From contig CAYXXL010000001.1 in the NCBI GenBank assembly GCA_964469025.1, positions 1 through 40,857 of the forward strand: a DNA stretch of 40,857 nt, written 5' to 3'. The notes under the pieces were generated by a model. That model made no database searches. It was not told the DNA's origin and saw nothing but the letters and a program-made list of their open reading frames with translations. Position 1 is the stretch's first letter; each line of letters opens with the position of its first letter. Of the stretch, positions 3,109-9,711 are shown piece by piece. Position numbers and translations under genes: made by a program. Source of the DNA: an uncultured Fibrobacteria bacterium. Lineage in GTDB: Bacteria; Fibrobacterota; Fibrobacteria; UBA5070.

Positions 3109-3368
3109 GCCTTCGGCCATTGCGCTGCGCTTGGTTTACAGGGGCCAGCCGCGGCCCCTGTACCCGGCGGCCAAAGGAGCCGTGCGCTCGGCTCCTTTGG
3201 AATCCTGAGCGCCAGGGGGTTCAGACTCTCCGGGCGTCCCTTCCGTGTTTCTCCATCGGCCCGCATGGGCCGATGGCCAGCCTGGACGCCCTCCGAATAG
3301 CTTCACCCCCTGGACCCCTGCCGGTTTCTGCCGGGCTCGCATTGGCCCCTTTCGGGGCCTCGCTCGGC
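3109..3368. repeat. Composite GC-rich palindromic repeat, copy A
   Basis: 3109-3165 matches 8740-8798 and 3317-3368 matches 8798-8848 (copy C). About 150 bp in between is extra sequence. Perfect hairpins: tacaggggcc/ggcccctgta (3137-3162), ccaaaggagccg/cggctcctttgg (3171-3200) and ccatcggccc/gggccgatgg (3253-3276). The reverse complement of 3137-3205 aligns with copies B and D. Confidence 0.7.
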
Positions 3369-3422
3369 GGGGTTGGTTCCTGGTTGGGTTACGAACGCCG
3401 TCAGCCTGTCGCGGCCAACGGT

Positions 3423-3869
3423 TCACAGCAATCGCGATTCCATCGGCTCGAACTGCTGGAGAAAATGGTCGAACGTGACGTCCGTGATGTTCAGGTCGCT
3501 TTTGGCGCTGCCCTGGCGGGCTTGGTTTCTGGCTCGGCACTCCTCGATGGATGTGTCCAGGACCACCCAAGTGAAAGGCAGTCCCAACTCCGCCAGCCGT
3601 TCCTCCATCCGGGATCGCGAAGCCCGCGTCCAAAACCCGTAGTCCAGGATCACGGGCGTGCCAGATCTTGCCGCAGGGATCCAGATCGACTCGAACAGGA
3701 CCAGGAGATCCGTCAGATGCGTCGGGAACTCACTCGCCGGTGGATCGGACCCGAACAAGACGGACATCCATTCGTCCGGAGAGAACCGAAGCGCGCCGAA
3801 CTCCCGCTCCAACGCCTTCGCCCGCGTGGTTTTGCCCGACCCGATGAACCCGTGCATCAGGAAAATCAC
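3423..3869 (-). CDS. Small P-loop kinase-like ATP-binding protein (AAA_33-like)
   Basis: 148-aa ORF with a GTG start. MIFLMHGFIGSGKTTRAKAL is a strand followed by Walker A. Size and layout fit small nucleotide or shikimate/gluconate-type kinases. Confidence 0.7.
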   Translation of the reverse strand: MIFLMHGFIGSGKTTRAKALEREFGALRFSPDEWMSVLFGSDPPASEFPTHLTDLLVLFESIWIPAARSGTPVILDYGFWTRASRSRMEERLAELGLPFTWVVLDTSIEECRARNQARQGSAKSDLNITDVTFDHFLQQFEPMESRLL

Positions 3870-3875
3870 CGGGGC

Positions 3876-3953
3876 TCACCCACGGAATGGATCATCGGAC
3901 TCCGCCCGCCGAATCGCACCCGCGATTGCGCCCTTCCCCGCCAAAGGACTCAT
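3876..3953 (-). pseudogene. Remnant of a GNAT 5' end (25 codons then stop) immediately upstream of the P-loop kinase gene
   Basis: ATG 3953 gives MSPLAGKGAIAGAIRRAESDDPFRG-stop. This parallels VSPLAGEGAIAGAIRQAESGDLPAIL at the start of the GNAT at 7919. The stop lies 6 nt before the kinase GTG. Confidence 0.6.
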
Positions 3954-3972
3954 GCCGGAAAAACTACACCGC
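3891..3972 (-). repeat. 82-bp leader repeat, copy 1 (GNAT 5' end plus about 19 bp upstream)
   Basis: Hand alignment with 7857-7938 gives 72 of 82 identical positions with no gaps. Confidence 0.85.
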
Positions 3973-4156
3973 GAGGTGATCGGAGATGACGTCCGGTTCT
4001 TTCATCCGACGCAATTTTCCGTTAGTGAGTGTGGGAATTCCAGGAACCCAAGGGGGCTCAGCGATCTACGGTGGCCGATCATCCGATCGGAATAGTGCTT
4101 CCCCGAGACGGGTTGCGCTGTGGCACGTGGCGCATGCGCGGGGCTTTCTTTGCGCC

Positions 4157-6685
4157 TCAGCTCATTCCCGTGGTGGCCTTCAATTCCAAGCCGTCGCGGT
4201 ACAGGCGTGCCACAAAAATCTTGTCAGGCGATTTTTGGTCCTGGGAACGGATCACGTTCAAAACACCCACATCAACCAGCTTTGGAAGGATGTCCGTCTC
4301 CAAGAATTGGGCGATTATCTGCTTCTTGCCCTTGGAAAGGTTGTGTTGTAAATGCGCAACAAATTCCTGCAGCGAGGATGCAGGCTTCGCACCCTTCATC
4401 GCCTCGAGATATTCACGAAGCTCGAGGTACTCGTCAGTCAGGTCTTTTACTCGCTTGCGGCTTGCCTCTTCAATCCCTGCGCGAAGACTGGGATAGCGCA
4501 GGATGCGATCACCTCTAACATCACCGGACGATTCCGCTTCGGCCTTCCAGCTGCGTTCCACCATCTGCATGATGGTGCGAGGGAACAATCGTTCCTGGGA
4601 ATCCTGGATACGATTCAGTATGTAATTGGCGGTATAGGCGCGTTTCCCCTTCTCGATCTTCTCGCCCCACAATGGAAAAAGGGCACGACGCAACTCCGTG
4701 ATGTCTCCCGAGATGGACGATGGATCCTTCAGCATCTCCTCGCATGCCGGATCCCGTCGGACCACCTTTAGGACCAGTCTCCAAAGATCACGTTCCTCGA
4801 AGCGAAGGGTGCGCGTGATCGGCTCCAGATGGCTGCGATTCTGCATCTTGACCGCTAACCATATGTCCTCTCGAAGAAAGACCTTGAACTGAACTCTCTT
4901 AAGCCGTGTGCGCCACTGGGCAAGCAATTGGAGCAGGCCGACAACATATCGATCCCTGCGCGGAGTCCAATCCTCTGGATTGGTGTTCTGGAATCCAGTA
5001 TCCAGCCCATCAAAGACCAGGCACAGACCCTGTGTACCCGACATCAGATGCTTGTCTGCGGCCTTCAGCAGATCCTCTGCTTCCAAGGCGGCATCCCTGG
5101 ACTTCAGCAACGGAATGATCGTCTTGTAACCGGGCTCATCCCAGAAAGACTCTAACTTGGGACGCATCGGTCGCCTGACGCTTGCCAAGAGAACCGGTTT
5201 GATGTCTGCTTGATGGCGAACAATCGCTTGTAGGCACCAGTAGATCCAGAAAACATCATGGGCTCCAGAGTTTACAAGTCCGGAATCCTTCTCGATCTTC
5301 TCGAAGTGATCCTTGCTTAGAAAGGGCGCTTCCGCCAAATCCGCACGAGGTGACAAACCCACCAGATATTCGACATCGAAAGGAACCGGAAGGAGATCTC
5401 GATTGCGACTGGGGTTTGTCAGGTACTTCCATAGAAAGCTCTTGCCCGCACCCTTGGCTCCGATGACCAGATGGATGGAACGATCCACAGCCGCCCGGGC
5501 ATCCTCGGAATCGATTAAGGTCTCCTCGATTTCTTGAAGCGACAGGTTTTCGCCGTAGCCGAAGCGCTCCGACAGGTTTGAGGCCTGAAGGATGCGACGT
5601 CGTTCGATGACTCGCTCAGGTCCAGTGTCTTCGGTCTTGCCTAATGCCCCCGCAAGCACCTGTGACAGATTACGGAATATGTCCTGCGGGCCCACCGCAC
5701 CCAAGGGAAGGGGGATCTTGTTCGCACTCCACACCCTGGCGTCCTGATCTATTCCCTCTTCCAAAATCACGATGGATGACTCGCCGGACTCCTCATCCGT
5801 TGACTCGCGGGCATCCAGCAGTTCGGCATTCAATCGTTCGATCATCCGCTTCAAACGAGGATTTCCGTCCTTGCCAGGCAAAACCAGGCTGGGCACGAAA
5901 ATCAGCGTAGGAACTGCACCCCGTGCCTTGCGCGTCTTCACGAAAGCATCACGAATGACCCTCACACCGTCCCAGATCTGATCGGACACCGGAAGGAAGA
6001 CGACAATCGCGTCGGCAACATGGAACATCGCTGTTGCAGATAGAGCAGTGAAGCCTGTCCGGCAATCCAGGAACAGCGCATCGCGCTCCGGACTCGACAA
6101 TTCCTCCAACAGGCGCCGCAACGGATTCGGGCGCTCCGGCTCATATGCATGCCAAAGACCGACTCCCAACTCCTCGAGCTGCGCCAGATAGACCTCGTCG
6201 AGCCTTCCGGCCGGCAGGATCTCGATGCGTCCACCTTCGGAGCCGAGGGATTCGGGAACAGTCAACATTTGGCTGACTGCATCCAGGCTTCCCGGAAATG
6301 GCTGGCTGGCTGCCTCGGACAGCAGAGCCATTGATCCCTTCTCCACGACATCGGATGCGTACCCGAATAGCTGCGCTAGACCGGGTGCTTCGAGATCCAA
6401 ATCCACAATCCCGATCTTGCGGCCTTGACGAGCCAGCAGTGCCGCTACGTAGCCCAATGCGGTGCTGCGGCCTGCACCACCCTTGAAGCCATAGAACGCC
6501 ACAATCGGAGTCTTCTGCTCGTTCACAGGATCGATTTCAGAAGATGCTTTCTTTTCGATTGGTTGCATTTGCAAGATGTCGAAGAAACTCGCCGGACTGA
6601 ACATGGCGGGCACCGCCGACTCAGCAGGAGCCAGCTCTTCGCGAGCCTCCAGAACCTGACCAGCTTTTTTCCGAGTCATGGTCAT
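4157..6685 (-). CDS. 842-aa double P-loop protein: ParA/MinD-like module with KGGxGR Walker A, NACHT/STAND-like NTPase module, helical C-terminal region
   Basis: ORF 4157..6715. I prefer ATG 6685, which has GGAGG upstream and overlaps the stop of the upstream gene as ATGA.
- Module 1: VAFYGFKGGAGRSTALGYVAALLA (6461-6490), IVDLDLEAPGL and LFLDCRTGF.
- Module 2: Walker A VIGAKGAGKS (5438-5461) and Walker B LCLVFDGLD (5000-5026).
- No recognisable effector domain.
- Hand-counted GC is 45-57%. Confidence 0.8.
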   Translation of the reverse strand: MTMTRKKAGQVLEAREELAPAESAVPAMFSPASFFDILQMQPIEKKASSEIDPVNEQKTPIVAFYGFKGGAGRSTALGYVAALLARQGRKIGIVDLDLEAPGLAQLFGYASDVVEKGSMALLSEAASQPFPGSLDAVSQMLTVPESLGSEGGRIEILPAGRLDEVYLAQLEELGVGLWHAYEPERPNPLRRLLEELSSPERDALFLDCRTGFTALSATAMFHVADAIVVFLPVSDQIWDGVRVIRDAFVKTRKARGAVPTLIFVPSLVLPGKDGNPRLKRMIERLNAELLDARESTDEESGESSIVILEEGIDQDARVWSANKIPLPLGAVGPQDIFRNLSQVLAGALGKTEDTGPERVIERRRILQASNLSERFGYGENLSLQEIEETLIDSEDARAAVDRSIHLVIGAKGAGKSFLWKYLTNPSRNRDLLPVPFDVEYLVGLSPRADLAEAPFLSKDHFEKIEKDSGLVNSGAHDVFWIYWCLQAIVRHQADIKPVLLASVRRPMRPKLESFWDEPGYKTIIPLLKSRDAALEAEDLLKAADKHLMSGTQGLCLVFDGLDTGFQNTNPEDWTPRRDRYVVGLLQLLAQWRTRLKRVQFKVFLREDIWLAVKMQNRSHLEPITRTLRFEERDLWRLVLKVVRRDPACEEMLKDPSSISGDITELRRALFPLWGEKIEKGKRAYTANYILNRIQDSQERLFPRTIMQMVERSWKAEAESSGDVRGDRILRYPSLRAGIEEASRKRVKDLTDEYLELREYLEAMKGAKPASSLQEFVAHLQHNLSKGKKQIIAQFLETDILPKLVDVGVLNVIRSQDQKSPDKIFVARLYRDGLELKATTGMS

Positions 6686-7134
6686 GCCTCCACCATCGCG
6701 AGAACGATGTCGCAAAGATCCAACTCTTCCTGTGCTTCAGGGAGGGAAAGATTTTCCATCCCGTAGCGCAGGCTGTAAGGACGTTCCGGTTCTTTGGATT
6801 TTATCCTGTTCCAAACATTCCCTGTCAACGGCGATTCCTTCCCCAGTGTGATGCATAGTCGCGGCCAAACCGCTTCCTGGGAAAGTCCGCCCAGATCATG
6901 CCCGTTTTTCCCTTTGAAGATCTTGTCCCAAAGGTCCGGATGCTTGTCTTTGAAGGTGCTCAAGCGGGAACAATGGTAGAGCCCAAGAATTCTTGCCTTG
7001 AACGCGCACTCCAGGGCAATCTGGGCCAGATAGGCCGCAGGTATCGGCTTCGTCGCGTTTTGCAAGGCGACTGCTCCGTGATAGGTGTTGCGCGCATGTC
7101 TGAGGAGGTGCGCTTTGTCCAAGATAGCGGTCAA
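6682..7134 (-). CDS. 150-aa HEPN-like protein, first gene of the two-gene operon
   Basis: TTG start at 7134 with GGGGGAG 8 nt upstream. Pattern LECAFKARILG ... KNGHDLGGL ... YSLRYG mirrors EKALKA ... THDLGKL ... FRY of the MNT-partnered HEPN at 8867-9266. An N-terminal RHARNTYH could be read as Rx6H. The stop overlaps the next start. Confidence 0.6.
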   Translation of the reverse strand: MTAILDKAHLLRHARNTYHGAVALQNATKPIPAAYLAQIALECAFKARILGLYHCSRLSTFKDKHPDLWDKIFKGKNGHDLGGLSQEAVWPRLCITLGKESPLTGNVWNRIKSKEPERPYSLRYGMENLSLPEAQEELDLCDIVLAMVEA

Positions 7135-7361
7135 GATTGCTTCTCCCCCTCATGCCCTGGAATTCGCTTGTGGGCGAGGGCGGGTCTCATCATTGCGGAT
7201 CTCCTTCCGTCCTGTCAACGAGGGACAACGGAAGCATGGAATTTAGGCCACGGGTTTCCTTCCGGATAGGCAGGTTCTCCATCATTTTCACGAAAATTCC
7301 AGTCCTTCACTGGTCCAGCCGCCTTCTGGGGCTATCAGGCCGCGCTCCCTACACCCAGAAT

Positions 7362-7422
7362 GGACAGTGCCACAACCCGCCCGCCCTGCCGAAAGCACGA
7401 CGGGCAGTGGGCTGGACTGTCC
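7362..7422 (-). other. Compound imperfect hairpin between the GNAT stop and the operon promoter region
   Basis: Outer arms are GGACAGT (7362-7368) and ACTGTCC (7416-7422). Inner arms are CCTGCCG (7385-7391) and CGGGCAG (7401-7407), which pair with one bulged base. No U-run follows, so this is not a canonical intrinsic terminator. Confidence 0.35.
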
Positions 7423-7448
7423 TTGGGTTGGCTCAATTGGATGTAGGG

Positions 7449-7919
7449 TCACAGCCGGAGTTCGTAGCCCTGCTTGGAGTCGGGATTGAAGCCCGCCGCC
7501 TCGTAGAACATATGGGCCTCCGATCGCTTCTTGCTGCTCTGGAGCAACACCTTGTAGCAGTCGTGCGCCTTGGCGATGGAGACGGCCTCGGCCATCAGGC
7601 GCGTTCCGTGCTTGAGCCTTCGAAATCCATCCGCGACGACCACGTTCTCGATCACCCCGAAGGGACGTCCGGATCTTGTCAAGTTGGGGATGATGGAAAG
7701 ATTGCAGGTCCCGACGACACCGGAAGGTCCATCCACGACCAAGTAGACCAGATTCCGACTGCCACGGATCTCGTTCCAGAGAGTCGCTGCCTTTGCCGGG
7801 TCCAACGGATCATCGTCGGGATTGAGCTGGGCATAGAGTGCCAGGATCGCCGGCAAATCACCGGATTCCGCCTGCCGGATCGCACCCGCAATTGCGCCCT
7901 CTCCCGCCAATGGACTCAC
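7449..7919 (-). CDS. GNAT family N-acetyltransferase
   Basis: ORF 7449..8084, trimmed to GTG 7919 because the duplicated copy has ATG at the homologous position. The fold pattern includes FGVIENVVVADGFRRLKHGTRLM (acetyl-CoA binding region) and FYEAAGF at the C-terminus. Confidence 0.75.
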   Translation of the reverse strand: MSPLAGEGAIAGAIRQAESGDLPAILALYAQLNPDDDPLDPAKAATLWNEIRGSRNLVYLVVDGPSGVVGTCNLSIIPNLTRSGRPFGVIENVVVADGFRRLKHGTRLMAEAVSIAKAHDCYKVLLQSSKKRSEAHMFYEAAGFNPDSKQGYELRL

Positions 7920-7938
7920 GCCGGAAAAGCTACACCGC
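7857..7938 (-). repeat. 82-bp leader repeat, copy 2 (authentic GNAT 5' end)
   Basis: See 3891-3972; 72 of 82 positions are identical. Confidence 0.85.
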
Positions 7939-8001
7939 CAGCCAGTCGGCGAGCGAAAGCGAGCCGCCCGCGACGACGGCGGGGGTCCGCGGGGAATCCA
8001 A

Positions 8002-8059
8002 GGGGCCACGCGGTCGGCCCCTTGGCCGGGGTACAGGGGCCCGGCGGCCCTTGTACATC
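8002..8059 (+). repeat. GC-rich palindromic repeat, copy B
   Basis: 56 of 58 positions are identical to 9654-9711. Hairpins: ccaaggggcc/ggccccttgg (7998-8025, perfect 10 bp) and gtacaggggcc/ggcccttgtac (8031-8056, one mismatch). Confidence 0.85.
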
Positions 8060-8739: not shown

Positions 8740-8848
8740 GCCTTCGGCCGTGGCGCTGCACTCGCTTCGCACAGGTGCCTGCCGCGGCCCCTGTACCCCT
8801 GCCGATCTCTGCCGGGCTCGCGTTGGCCCCTTCGGGGCCTCGCTCGGC
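8740..8848 (-). repeat. GC-rich palindromic repeat, copy C (inverted relative to B and D)
   Basis: Collinear with the two ends of copy A. Its reverse complement aligns with B and D around GGGGTACAGGGGCC. It contains a ggcccc-ttc-ggggcc hairpin. Confidence 0.7.
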
Positions 8849-8866
8849 TGGACGGTTTCTCGACGC

Positions 8867-9266
8867 CTACGACTGCATTCCGCCCGGAAGATCGCCGTGT
8901 ACTCGACTGTACAAGGCCTGCAAAGAGACGACAATTTCCCTTCGTGGAAGCGGATCGCTGTCTTCGGGCAATCCGTCGTATCGAAATTGGACCGCGAACG
9001 AAGTCCAACGGGTCAAAGGCCATAGCGGCGCAGGGTCTACACCCAATCTTTCGAGAATCGGAATCAACTTCCCGAGATCATGCGTCGGTGGATATTCTCC
9101 GCCGAGCCGTGAAATCCAAGCCTTCAACGCCTTTTCCGTAGGCCTGCTGCGCATGAAATTCGAAAATCTCCTCGGCGAGTTCCTTGGAATATTCGAAGAT
9201 TTCGAGAGCCCGGAGATCCTTCCGACCCATCTCCAGGATGGACTCCCATTCCTCAGACATGCCCAT
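8867..9266 (-). pseudogene. HEPN domain protein (MNT partner, TA toxin-like) interrupted by a frameshift
   Basis: Two overlapping ORFs in different frames: 9078..9266 (..EIFEFHAQQAYGKGVEGL) and 8867..9154 (..TEKALKAWISRLGGEYPPTHDLGKL..FRYDG). Removing 1 nt within 9137-9140 restores FHAQQA-x-EKALKAW. The start overlaps the MNT gene by 14 nt. Confidence 0.7.
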
Positions 9267-9600: not shown

Positions 9601-9653
9601 ACACCGGCGCTCCGCTTGGACCTGCGGTCGTCGCGCTTCGCTTGCTTCGCACC

Positions 9654-9711
9654 GGGGTCACGCGGTCGGCCCTTTGGCCGGGGTACAGGGGCCCGGCGGC
9701 CCTTGTACATC
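9654..9711 (+). repeat. GC-rich palindromic repeat, copy D
   Basis: 56 of 58 positions are identical to copy B. Hairpin gtacaggggcc/ggcccttgtac at 9683-9708. It lies between the hemW stop and the MNT start. Confidence 0.85.

What the first reader, a model, noticed from the sequence alone, without database searches (positions are those of the whole stretch)
4157..7134. Low-GC two-gene operon: HEPN-like protein coupled to a ParA-like + STAND-like double NTPase, a candidate uncharacterised defence system
**Seen in the sequence**
- The 150-aa gene has a TTG start with GGGGGAG upstream. Its stop overlaps the ATG of the 842-aa gene (ATGA at 6682-6685, GGAGG upstream). They therefore form one translationally coupled unit.
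- The small protein carries the helical pattern LECAFKARILG ... KNGHDLGGL ... YSLRYG. The MNT-partnered HEPN in this same window shows the matching pattern EKALKA ... THDLGKL ... FRY.
- The large protein joins a ParA/MinD-type module (FKGGAGRST, IVDLDLEAPGL, LFLDCRTGF) to a second P-loop module. That module has Walker A GAKGAGKS and a NACHT-style Walker B LCLVFDGLD. About 200 helical residues follow.
- I can recognise no nuclease, protease, TIR or SIR2 domain inside the large protein.
- Hand-counted 60-mers inside the operon are 45-57% GC, against 63-75% in the flanks.
- The operon sits among TA and cassette-like genes.

**Inference.** The large protein is an NTP-driven sensor or switch and the HEPN-like protein is an RNase effector, giving an abortive-infection-type logic.

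I do not recognise this gene pair as any named defence system.
Basis: partly seen in the sequence, partly recalled or inferred. Interest (0 to 1): 0.9.

Follow-up and report, generated by a model that had tools for sequence, protein, structure and literature searches.

The report
HEPN plus double-ATPase defence candidate (PDC-M28)
This two-gene operon is real and widely conserved, but it is a fused-gene variant of an already catalogued, still untested anti-phage candidate (PADLOC PDC-M28), pairing a small HEPN-type protein with a large protein carrying two different ATPase modules.

Summary
In detail: two translationally coupled minus-strand genes (150 aa; 840/842 aa), all quoted motifs, and a GC dip (0.53-0.60 against 0.64-0.72). 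The large protein is a ParA/Soj-fold 'KGGVGR-motif variant' ATPase, with its P-loop Lys replaced by Arg, fused to a 'Sll1717-family' AAA+ ATPase with Orc1/Cdc6-like fold. These modules equal PADLOC PDC-M28B and PDC-M28C. The small protein matches no library directly. Its family is homologous to PDC-M28A, and its model (pLDDT 96) resembles AF0298/TT1696/sacsin-type HEPN domains. It lacks Rx4-6H but keeps the alternative His plus Arg seen in the AbiV class. The pair is conserved: 77 of 80 species genomes, 8 of 8 extra metagenomic loci and 3 of 3 reciprocal look-ups, nearly always with the genes abutting. So this is a B-C-fused, A-diverged variant of a catalogued but untested candidate, and PADLOC's A model would miss it. 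A defence role is plausible: the pair is embedded in, or abuts, BREX loci twice and sits next to hsdR once. It is not shown. Most neighbours are non-defence genes, 16 Nostocales loci are groEL-linked, and no phage carries it. The best model is an NTP-gated HEPN RNase effector; the RNase activity and the trigger are inferred.

The parts
6682..7134 (-). Gene A: 150-aa HEPN-like protein (AF0298/AbiV-type, no Rx4-6H). Invariant residues: E42 (7011-7009), C43, K46, G78-H79 (His codon 6900-6898), R118-P119 and R123-Y124 (Arg codon 6768-6766).
   Evidence: ORF. TTG start and Shine-Dalgarno sequence. 78 relatives. Invariant columns. AF2 model pLDDT 96.1. Foldseek top hits are HEPN domains. Relatives hit Pfam HEPN and PADLOC PDC-M28A. 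hhalign to the PADLOC-recognised clade gives 92% probability, E = 6e-7.
4157..6685 (-). Gene BC: fused double ATPase. It is 842 aa from the ATG at 6685; the more probable start is the ATG at 6679, giving 840 aa.
   Evidence: AF2 model pLDDT 85.2.
5834..6511 (-). Module B (residues about 59-284): ParA/Soj-fold 'KGGVGR-motif variant' ATPase. The P-loop K68-GGAG-R73-ST is at 6461-6484. Switch motif D95-L-D97-L-E-A-P-G and Walker B D207-CRTG are present.
   Evidence: NCBIfam NF047398, 133.6 bits against a cutoff of 90. PADLOC PDC-M28B, E = 3.7e-27. Foldseek match to Soj 1wcv, E = 1.4e-6, TM 0.75 on the target. [KR]GGxGR[ST] in 69 of 70 loci and DxDxEAPG in 70 of 70.
4160..5497 (-). Module C (residues about 397-842): Sll1717-family AAA+ P-loop ATPase. 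Walker A G409-AKGAGK-S416 is at 5438-5461 and Walker B D559-GLD follows. The C-terminal part is helical, and its final helix-helix-strand-strand pattern looks like a winged helix by my own reading of the secondary structure; I did not test that separately.
   Evidence: NCBIfam NF047389, 105.8 bits against a cutoff of 75. PADLOC PDC-M28C, E = 1.4e-23. Foldseek match to Orc1/Cdc6 2qby_A, E = 1e-4. Weak Pfam ORC-CDC6-like and AAA_16 hits. Secondary structure.
7189..7218 (-). Candidate sigma-70-type promoter (TTGACA-18-AATGAT), 55 nt upstream of the TTG start of gene A, inside the 314-nt intergenic region 7135-7448.
   Evidence: It is a single consensus match and no more than the shuffled sequence gives, so it is only a candidate.
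7857..7952 (-). Direct repeat D1, copy 2. It covers the upstream region and the first codons of the GNAT gene (…AIRQAESGD…).
3891..3986 (-). Direct repeat D1, copy 1 (83% identical to copy 2). It lies upstream of the AAA_33 gene and encodes a decayed remnant of the GNAT N-terminus (…AIRRAESDDPFRG*). With copy 2 it bounds a 3966-nt unit (GNAT + A + BC) that coincides with the low-GC segment.

Best explanation
The locus is a two-gene conflict module. It is the B-C-fused, A-diverged form of the PADLOC candidate system PDC-M28.

Shown here:
1. Gene A encodes a small all-helical HEPN-fold protein of the AF0298/AbiV class. The canonical Rx4-6H motif is absent. A His in the helix-2/3 insert (H79), the motif Arg (R123) and a helix-2 Glu (E42) are invariant.
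2. Gene BC encodes a ParA/Soj-fold ATPase whose P-loop Lys is always Arg (KGGxGR[ST]). It is fused to an Orc1/Cdc6-like AAA+ ATPase with canonical Walker A and B.
3. The two genes are abutting or overlapping partners in almost every genome that has either one.

Inferred mechanism:
- A forms a HEPN dimer that acts as an RNase effector or toxin, by analogy with AbiV, a metal-independent rRNase.
- BC holds A inactive.
- The AAA+ module, with its likely winged-helix C-terminus, senses an invader-derived signal (a nucleic acid or a protein).
- The ParA-like module, an ATP-sandwich dimerisation switch slowed by the Lys-to-Arg change, converts nucleotide state into release or activation of A.
- RNA cleavage then arrests growth, giving an abortive-infection outcome.

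My confidence in the identity and architecture is about 0.9. My confidence in the defence/RNase mechanism is about 0.45. The confidence score given for this explanation blends the two.
For: Identity:
- PADLOC PDC-M28B at 3.7e-27 and PDC-M28C at 1.4e-23 on the large protein.
- NCBIfam AAA_KGGVGR and Sll1717, both above their curated cutoffs.
- 22 of 42 small-family members hit PDC-M28A (per-protein values).
- Profile-profile homology between the window clade and the PADLOC-recognised clade: 92% probability, E = 6e-7.
- The split A-B-C form exists in L080.

Folds:
- Small protein model pLDDT 96; top PDB hits are 1ufb, 4nqf, 2q00, 2hsb, 1wol, 3o10, 1o3u and Csm6.
- Large protein matches ParA/Soj and then Orc1/Cdc6.

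Coupling:
- The small gene is found in 75 of 80 loci by iterated HMM, always directly upstream on the same strand, and in 77 of 80 after re-inspection.
- 8 of 8 extra loci have it, and 3 of 3 reciprocal look-ups hold.
- In 65 of 70 junctions the ATPase start lies -4 to +20 nt from the small gene's stop.
- Mantel r = 0.96 between the two proteins' distance matrices.

Conflict role:
- The pair is embedded inside a BREX/Pgl locus in L091 and abuts one in L094/L095.
- It lies next to hsdR on a Nostoc plasmid.
- PDC-M28 was nominated because of embedding in BREX, DISARM or type I RM systems (10.1101/2024.01.29.577857).
- In the window, the unit is low in GC and bounded by direct repeats.

RNase plausibility:
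- AbiV is an rRNase whose nearest structures are AF0298, TT1696 and sacsin (10.1101/2024.05.05.592566).
- An alternative His plus Arg active site has been proposed for this HEPN class (PMC3710099).
Against: - There is no experimental test of PDC-M28 or of any homologue; the source paper calls the PDCs untested, and no paper mentions PDC-M28, KGGVGR or Sll1717.
- The small protein itself hits no Pfam, PADLOC or NCBIfam model.
- The Foldseek E-values for the HEPN fold are weak (0.02-0.5, TM 0.47-0.64).
- Rx4-6H is absent, and PF05168-type HEPN domains include non-catalytic nucleotide-binding forms.
- Most nearest neighbours are not defence genes.
- 16 Nostocales loci share a conserved groEL-linked position, which suggests long vertical retention.
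- No copy was found in sequenced phages, and only one full-length copy in 72,556 plasmids.
- Arg in place of the P-loop Lys may mean the ParA-like module does not hydrolyse ATP. MinD/ParA-like domains in other conflict systems were predicted to be inactive (PMC7159879).
- The Mantel correlation is inflated by shared phylogeny.
Confidence: 0.55

Rival explanations
1. It is a toxin-antitoxin or addiction module with no dedicated anti-phage sensing. The HEPN protein is a toxin, and the ATPase continuously neutralises it through a nucleotide-dependent conformational change or a modification. This is what was proposed for the HEPN + ParA/Soj dyads described in 2013.
For: Anantharaman et al. 2013 proposed exactly this logic for MAE_18760-family HEPN + ParA/Soj pairs (PMC3710099). 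The genes here are tightly coupled. The pair occurs as a solitary insert in unrelated contexts. It lies beside another TA pair (MNT/HEPN) in the window. AbiV itself behaves like a type III TA system.
Against: An 840-aa protein with two NTPase modules is far more machinery than antitoxins usually need. The gene order is HEPN first, whereas the 2013 text places the ATPase in the position that MNT occupies in MNT-HEPN modules. The module is rare on plasmids, where addiction modules tend to be common. Three loci have the ATPase without a recognisable small gene. TA and abortive-infection functions are not mutually exclusive.
Confidence: 0.2
2. It is a cellular, non-conflict function. The HEPN-like protein is a non-catalytic nucleotide-binding or adaptor partner that regulates a ParA-type positioning or assembly ATPase, as MinE, ParB or McdB do for their ATPases. 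The function may be linked to proteostasis or development in multicellular bacteria.
For: There is conserved groEL - A - BC synteny in 16 Nostocales loci, with ureD downstream in 5. Most neighbours are housekeeping genes. Rx4-6H is absent, and PF05168-type HEPN domains such as the one in KNTase bind nucleotides rather than cleave RNA. ParA/MinD ATPases typically work with small partner proteins. The distribution is skewed towards filamentous cyanobacteria, Myxococcota and Ktedonobacteria.
Against: The pair is embedded in or abuts BREX loci twice and lies next to hsdR once. The phyletic distribution is patchy, with deep divergence (24-49% identity) and differing neighbours in nearly every non-Nostocales genome. 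The window copy sits in a low-GC unit bounded by repeats. His, Arg and Glu are invariant at the positions proposed as the alternative HEPN active site.
Confidence: 0.12
3. It is an accessory or modulator of BREX or restriction-modification systems rather than an autonomous system.
For: In L091 the pair lies between pglX and brxC/pglY, on the same strand as the BREX genes. In L094/L095 it follows brxD and the Lhr-like helicase. On the Nostoc plasmid it lies next to hsdR.
Against: The large majority of loci, including this window, have no BREX or RM genes within the flanks examined. According to the PADLOC authors, embedded genes are typically independent systems.
Confidence: 0.06

Closest known systems
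PADLOC phage defence candidate PDC-M28 (three-gene cassette A>>B>>C; Payne et al., bioRxiv 10.1101/2024.01.29.577857)
   Same: It has the same three protein families. Module B hits PDC-M28B (3.7e-27) and module C hits PDC-M28C (1.4e-23). The small-protein family hits PDC-M28A in 22 of 42 members, and it is profile-homologous to the recognised clade. The gene order A then B then C is the same. Some instances are embedded in BREX or lie next to type I RM.
   Different: B and C are fused into one 840-aa protein here, as in at least 72 of the 80 best loci. The window's A protein and its clade fall outside the PDC-M28A model (E >= 0.01 or no hit), so an automated call would fail. PDC-M28 itself is untested.
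[quoted passage not shown]
   Same: It is a small helical HEPN domain. Its nearest solved structures are the same ones reported for AbiV: 2HSB, 1UFB and 3O10. It belongs to the class that lacks the canonical motif His but keeps the Arg and has an alternative conserved His N-terminal to it. 4 of 42 relatives hit Pfam HEPN_AbiV weakly.
   Different: AbiV is about 200 aa, is controlled by an adjacent RNA (abiV2), and has no ATPase partner. Sequence similarity to the window protein is below detection. RNase activity has not been shown for this family.
HEPN (MAE_18760 family) + ParA/Soj-like ATPase dyad predicted as a TA system (Anantharaman et al. 2013, PMC3710099)
   Same: It is a small HEPN gene paired with a SIMIBI/ParA-type ATPase gene. 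Examples come from Microcystis and other cyanobacteria. It was predicted to be a conflict or TA module.
   Different: The MAE_18760 family is listed as conserving Rx4-6H and as having Schlafen, Toprim-NTD and RES-NTD fusions. The present family lacks Rx4-6H and shows none of those fusions. Here HEPN is upstream, and the ATPase carries a second AAA+ module.
MNT-HEPN type VII toxin-antitoxin systems (for example MntA-HepT)
   Same: A HEPN-fold small protein is paired with a nucleotide-using partner encoded by an abutting gene. A PF05168-type HEPN of this kind lies 1.7 kb away in the same window.
   Different: The partner is a double P-loop ATPase, not a minimal nucleotidyltransferase. The gene order is reversed. 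There is no Rx4HxY motif.
ParA/MinD/Soj deviant-Walker-A ATPases
   Same: The fold matches (TM 0.75 to Soj on the target). The signature N-terminal basic residue, the DxD switch and the Walker B Asp are all present.
   Different: The P-loop Lys is universally Arg (KGGxGR[ST]). The module is fused to an AAA+ module. There is no ParB- or MinE-type partner.

Membership tests
PADLOC PDC-M28 | A protein matching the PDC-M28B model | tested here: met
   PDLC04559, E = 3.7e-27, residues 50-284; PDLC04560, E = 1.1e-13.
PADLOC PDC-M28 | A protein matching the PDC-M28C model | tested here: met
   PDLC04561, E = 1.4e-23, residues 397-796.
PADLOC PDC-M28 | A protein matching the PDC-M28A model | tested here: not met
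   The window protein has no hit at E <= 1. Its closest relatives give E >= 0.01 or no hit. Homology to the recognised clade is nevertheless supported: 22 of 42 family members hit the model, and hhalign gives 92% probability, E = 6e-7.
PADLOC PDC-M28 | Three separate genes in the order A>>B>>C (CAS_00115) | tested here: not met
   B and C are one ORF in the window. The split form is seen in L080. The cassette definition comes from supplement file 8.
NCBIfam NF047398 KGGVGR-motif variant AAA ATPase | Score above the curated cutoff (90 bits) | tested here: met
   133.6 bits, residues 59-244.
NCBIfam NF047389 P-loop ATPase, Sll1717 family | Score above the curated cutoff (75 bits) | tested here: met
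   105.8 bits.
HEPN superfamily | HEPN helical-bundle fold | tested here: met
   The AF2 model has pLDDT 96.1. The top 8 PDB matches are all HEPN domains, with probability 0.96-1.0, although E is 0.02-0.5 and TM 0.47-0.64.
HEPN superfamily | Rx4-6H catalytic motif | tested here: not met
   R123 is followed by Y-G-M-E-N-L, with no His within 4-6 residues. The family consensus is RYGxE. The alternative H79 plus R123 arrangement matches the AF0298/AbiV class described in PMC3710099.
HEPN superfamily | Pfam PF05168 match | tested here: inconclusive
   The window protein has no hit. 15 of 42 relatives hit at E <= 1, with a best value of 9.9e-7.
ParA/MinD (SIMIBI) ATPases | Deviant Walker A KGGxxK[ST] with a P-loop lysine | tested here: not met
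   The sequence is KGGAGRST. The Lys is replaced by Arg in 69 of 70 loci and R73 is invariant.
ParA/MinD (SIMIBI) ATPases | ParA/Soj fold and a Pfam ParA match | tested here: met
   Foldseek match to Soj, E = 1.4e-6, TM 0.75 on the target. Pfam PF10609 scores 30.0 bits against a cutoff of 27.1, over residues 62-116 only.
STAND / NACHT NTPases | A match to a STAND-type model above its threshold | tested here: not met
   AAA_16 scores 15.9 bits against a cutoff of 32.6, and the window protein has no NACHT hit. The only C-module match among the top 50 Foldseek PDB hits is Orc1/Cdc6 2qby_A, E = 1e-4. Only 2 of 64 relatives carry a precomputed NACHT hit, whereas many carry ORC-CDC6-like.
MNT-HEPN toxin-antitoxin | An adjacent minimal nucleotidyltransferase partner | tested here: not met
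   The partner is the double ATPase. The MNT gene in the window belongs to a different HEPN gene.
MAE_18760 HEPN + ParA/Soj dyad (Anantharaman 2013) | The HEPN protein belongs to the MAE_18760 family (Rx4-6H conserved) | not testable with these tools
   The family's sequences are not held. The absence of Rx4-6H argues against identity.
Validated anti-phage defence system | Experimental protection against phage | not testable with these tools
   The source paper describes the PDCs as untested. No paper mentions PDC-M28, KGGVGR or Sll1717.

The most novel reading that the evidence does not exclude
The module is an autonomous abortive-infection system of a mechanistically new type. A ParA-type dimerisation switch with an arginine-substituted P-loop is fused to an Orc1/Cdc6-like AAA+ sensor, and together they gate an AbiV-class HEPN RNase that uses a non-canonical His/Arg active site. 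The system is widespread in filamentous cyanobacteria, Myxococcota and Ktedonobacteria, and current defence-finder models miss this clade.
Probability: 0.35. Interest if true: 0.7.

Novelty: new variant of a known kind. Interest (0 to 1): 0.5.

Why it matters
If the module is shown to defend against phage, it would turn one of the 145 untested PADLOC candidates into a characterised system. It would add a ParA-like switch fused to an Orc/Cdc6-like AAA+ module as a new way of controlling a HEPN effector. It would also give a functional test of the proposed alternative HEPN active site that lacks Rx4-6H.

There is a practical point too. The fused form, and the window's clade of A proteins, escape the current PADLOC A model. 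Censuses of defence systems in Myxococcota-like, Verrucomicrobia and Thermoanaerobaculia genomes therefore under-count it. The profiles built here would close that gap.

Stable retention next to groEL in Nostocaceae, alongside BREX embedding elsewhere, makes this a useful case for asking how conflict modules become fixed in a lineage.

Tried and rejected
- A word-indexed homologue search with the small protein found only the protein itself. The exhaustive HMMER search was needed to find relatives.
- A PDB sequence-profile search with the small family found nothing meaningful. The same search with the large family found only the MinD/ParA P-loop region and nothing for module C.
- hhalign between the small family and the window's MNT-partnered HEPN aligned only 12 columns (E = 0.05).
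- I tested whether the 96-nt repeat and the junction palindromes are a riboswitch, a leader or attC-like elements. There is no Rfam hit at gathering threshold and only chance hits in a permissive scan. By eye there are no convincing GTTRRRY/RYYYAAC cores. I dropped the integron idea as unsupported.
- I looked for phage carriage and found none. The viral structure library gave no significant match.
- A literature search for PDC-M28, KGGVGR and Sll1717 returned no papers. The supplement of the 2013 HEPN paper does not hold the MAE_18760 sequences.
- I considered a NACHT/STAND assignment for module C and rejected it in favour of Orc1/Cdc6-like AAA+.
- I considered whether AAA_33 or GNAT is a third component. 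Neither recurs among the neighbours of relatives, so I rejected that.

Full report
**1.

The minus strand carries a 150-aa ORF (6682-7134, TTG start) and an 852-aa ORF whose ATG at 6685 gives 842 aa. GGGGGAG lies 8 nt upstream of the TTG. The small gene's TGA (6684-6682) overlaps the ATG at 6685.

There is one correction. GGAGG (6691-6687) is 1 nt from that ATG but 7 nt from the next ATG at 6679. The 840-aa start chosen by public gene callers is therefore more likely. Either start leaves the genes coupled.

GC in 400-nt windows is 0.53-0.60 across about 4000-7800, against 0.61-0.72 outside.

**2. The large protein**

Pfam gives only a marginal ParA hit (30 bits, residues 62-116) and sub-threshold AAA_16, AAA_22 and ORC-CDC6-like hits. 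Two curated libraries are decisive.

| Library | Module B (N-terminal) | Module C (C-terminal) |
|---|---|---|
| NCBIfam | KGGVGR-motif variant AAA ATPase, 133.6 bits (cutoff 90), residues 59-244 | P-loop ATPase, Sll1717 family, 105.8 bits (cutoff 75) |
| PADLOC | PDC-M28B, 3.7e-27, residues 50-284 | PDC-M28C, 1.4e-23, residues 397-796 |

An AlphaFold2 model built on 30 relatives has pLDDT 85. Its best PDB fold matches are ParA/Soj/MinD-type ATPases (Soj 1wcv, E = 1.4e-6, TM 0.75 on the target). The only match to the C-terminal module among the top hits is Orc1/Cdc6 (2qby_A, E = 1e-4). Module C is therefore an AAA+ of the Orc/Cdc6 type rather than demonstrably NACHT. The helix-helix-strand-strand pattern at its C-terminus suggests a winged helix; that is my reading of the secondary structure and was not tested separately.

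Across 70 homologous loci:

- The first P-loop is [KR]GGxGR[ST] in 69, so the canonical lysine is always arginine.
- DxDxEAPG is present in 70.
- The second Walker A, GxKGxGK[ST], is canonical in at least the 68 listed.

The alignment of 30 relatives shows these residues, and many C-terminal ones, to be invariant.

**3. The small protein**

It hits nothing in Pfam, PADLOC or NCBIfam. A word-indexed search finds only the protein itself. An exhaustive HMMER search finds 78 relatives of about 150 aa, 40 of them at E <= 1e-10.

The invariant columns are Y35, E42, C43, K46, F73, G78, H79, R118, P119, R123 and Y124. There is no Rx4-6H motif.

I scanned each member of a 42-sequence family alignment separately:

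- 15 hit Pfam HEPN PF05168 (best 9.9e-7) and 4 hit HEPN_AbiV.
- 22 hit PADLOC PDC-M28A (best 6.7e-17).

The AlphaFold2 model is very confident (pLDDT 96.1, pTM 0.90, all helical). Its top eight PDB matches are all HEPN domains: TT1696, 4NQF, SSO P95883, AF0298, ST0689, sacsin and TM0613, followed by Csm6. Foldseek probabilities are 0.96-1.0, although E-values are weak (0.02-0.5).

This matches a class described by Anantharaman et al. (PMC3710099). In AF0298-like HEPN-T proteins and in AbiV, the motif His is missing and the Arg is kept. A second conserved His N-terminal to the motif, plus a helix-2 acidic residue, could form an alternative active site. AbiV has since been shown to be a metal-independent rRNase, and AF0298, TT1696 and sacsin are its nearest structures (10.1101/2024.05.05.592566). 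RNase activity for the present family remains an inference.

**4. The pair is a conserved module**

A scan of one genome per species found at least 518 relatives of the large protein. I examined the best 80 loci. They come from many Cyanobacteria, Myxococcota, Ktedonobacteria, Verrucomicrobia, Thermoanaerobaculia, Sorangium and others.

Every hit was on the same strand, just upstream of the ATPase. No hit fell anywhere else among all six-frame ORFs of at least 40 aa.
- Re-inspection of the five negative loci found one diverged copy and one copy cut by a contig end. Three loci have no recognisable partner, so the final count is 77 of 80.
- Profile-profile comparison of the window clade with the cyanobacterial clade supports homology independently of my iteration (92%, E = 6e-7, 133 columns, with the E-C-x-x-K, G-H and R-Y motifs aligned).
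- In 65 of 70 junctions, the nearest in-frame start of the ATPase lies -4 to +20 nt from the small gene's stop.
- Distance matrices of the two proteins correlate (Mantel r = 0.96, 0 of 999 permutations reach it; r = 0.63 among distant pairs). Shared phylogeny inflates this, so it is supporting evidence only.
- Eight further metagenomic loci all carry the small gene. One of them is a copy that the public gene caller missed.
- Three small-protein homologues found independently of the ATPase are each followed by an RGGAGRT/DLDLEAPG ATPase.

A split A (140 aa) - B (447 aa) - C (535 aa) form exists in L080. At least 72 of the 80 loci are fused.

**5. Relation to what is known**

PDC-M28 is one of 145 'phage defence candidates' that Payne et al. 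added to PADLOC. They were chosen because at least one instance is embedded in a BREX, DISARM or type I RM locus, and the authors state they are untested (10.1101/2024.01.29.577857). It is listed as the three-family cassette CAS_00115, with a count of 121.

No paper in the library mentions PDC-M28, KGGVGR or Sll1717. Public records name these proteins 'MinD-like ATPase', 'AAA family ATPase', 'ParA family protein' or 'hypothetical protein'.

PADLOC's A model recognises the split form and the cyanobacterial and Ktedonobacteria members (6.7e-17 to 3e-6). It does not recognise the window protein or its clade. Because B and C are also fused, an automated run would not call this locus. I therefore class it as a new variant of a known but uncharacterised kind.

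The 2013 HEPN survey also predicted a HEPN (MAE_18760 family) + ParA/Soj dyad as a TA system. That family is listed as retaining Rx4-6H, so it is probably a different one. I could not test this because the sequences are not held.

The KGGVGR domain also pairs with other partners. On Rhizobium plasmids it sits with an MqsA-like protein.

**6. Is it a defence system?**

Evidence for:

- In L091, a fused relative from the window's clade (35% identical) sits inside a BREX/Pgl locus, between the PglX methyltransferase and BrxC/PglY, on the same strand.
- In L094/L095 the pair directly follows PglZ, BrxD and an Lhr-like helicase.
- On a Nostoc plasmid it lies next to hsdR.
- In the window, the unit is low in GC and bounded by 96-nt direct repeats. 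One repeat copy carries a decayed remnant of the GNAT 5' end. This points to acquisition or rearrangement by recombination.

Evidence against, or neutral:

- Among 124 nearest neighbours, the commonest families are GroEL (16, all Nostocales, upstream on the same strand), UreD (5), PIN (5), a class II tRNA synthetase (4) and LigT (4).
- Only a minority of neighbours hit PADLOC models: mad2 (5), PD-T4-2_B (2) and a few single hits.
- Other window-clade contexts are unrelated, mostly housekeeping genes.
- Sequenced phages have no copy, and 72,556 plasmids hold one full-length copy.

That is partly met in Nostocaceae and not met elsewhere.

**7. Most likely mechanism**

The architecture and the coupling are shown. 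The rest is inferred.

- A forms a HEPN dimer that acts as an RNase effector through H79, R123 and E42.
- BC sequesters or gates it.
- The Orc/Cdc6-like AAA+ module senses an invader-derived ligand.
- The ParA-like module acts as a nucleotide-dependent dimerisation switch. Its Arg P-loop probably slows or abolishes hydrolysis. Kaur et al. predicted that MinD/ParA-like domains in other conflict systems are inactive (PMC7159879).
- Activation of A would arrest growth.

The rivals are a plain TA or addiction module, a cellular ParA-partner function, and a BREX/RM accessory role.

**8. Verdict**

The finding is real and was read well by the first stage. It is not an unrecognised system. It is the B-C-fused, A-diverged form of the catalogued, untested candidate PDC-M28. 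Its HEPN is of the AbiV/AF0298 class, and its second ATPase is Orc/Cdc6-like rather than NACHT. Interest is moderate at 0.5. The module is widespread, mechanistically unexplored and directly testable, but it is not categorically new, and its genomic-context support for defence is mixed.

Noticed in passing
window 3891-3986 and 7857-7952: A 96-nt direct repeat (83% identical) bounds a 3966-nt unit (GNAT + HEPN-like gene + double ATPase) that coincides with the low-GC segment. The copy upstream of AAA_33 encodes a decayed remnant of the GNAT N-terminus (AIRRAESDDPFRG*). This suggests insertion or duplication by recombination. There is no Rfam match.
   Followed up: partly
window about 3109-3371, 8002-8059, 8740-8851 and 9620-9711: Related GC-rich palindromic elements (for example ACAGGGGCC..GGCCCCTGT; D2 is 97% identical between its two copies) sit at the junctions between same-strand cassette-like genes: radical SAM | MNT-HEPN | DJ-1 | GNAT+module | AAA_33. 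They look REP-like. I found no convincing attC cores and no Rfam family.
   Followed up: partly
window 8867-9266 (-): The MNT-partnered HEPN gene appears to be frameshifted near 9135. The N-terminal 62 aa (…EFHAQQA) and the C-terminal 95-aa ORF (TEKALKAW…THDLGKL…FRY) are in different frames. It could be a pseudogene or an assembly error.
   Followed up: partly
L016, L018, L025, L027, L030, L035, L040, L043, L045, L048, L050, L053, L062, L074, L082 (about 3400-5230 upstream of the pair): In Nostocaceae the pair sits in a conserved position directly downstream of a groEL (Cpn60) gene on the same strand, with ureD downstream in several genomes. This implies long vertical retention in that family.
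   Followed up: partly
L091 773-20544; L094/L095 1-8155: Fused relatives of the window's clade are embedded in, or directly abut, type-2 BREX/Pgl loci (NERD-kinase, PglX, BrxC/PglY, PglZ, BrxD, Lhr-like helicase).
   Followed up: yes
L088 4489-6866 (Rhizobium phaseoli plasmid pRphaN831c): A KGGVGR-variant ATPase of 624 aa, with a different C-terminal region, is coupled by a 1-nt overlap to an MqsA-family antitoxin-like protein instead of a HEPN protein, and lies next to SbcCD-like genes. The KGGVGR module seems to be a reusable partner in several small conflict-type modules.
   Followed up: partly
window 6572-6604 (large protein residues 28-38): A short, nearly invariant N-terminal peptide (M-F-S-x-A-S-F-x-D-V-L, with F34 invariant) precedes the ParA-like module and is flanked by low-confidence linkers (pLDDT below 50 at residues 1-21 and 45-55). 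It may be a docking or regulatory peptide.
   Followed up: no
L085 about 1350-1790; L092 7632-8543: In L085 the small HEPN-like gene was missed by the public gene caller. In L092 the small protein is 303 aa, with a roughly 135-aa N-terminal extension of unknown nature.
   Followed up: partly
L009, L067, L070: These three loci have the double ATPase without a recognisable small HEPN-like gene upstream. The ATPase can therefore persist alone, or with an unrecognised partner.
   Followed up: partly
window 33020-33092 (+): A tRNA gene (Rfam RF00005, 75.3 bits). It is the only Rfam match at gathering threshold in the window.
   Followed up: no
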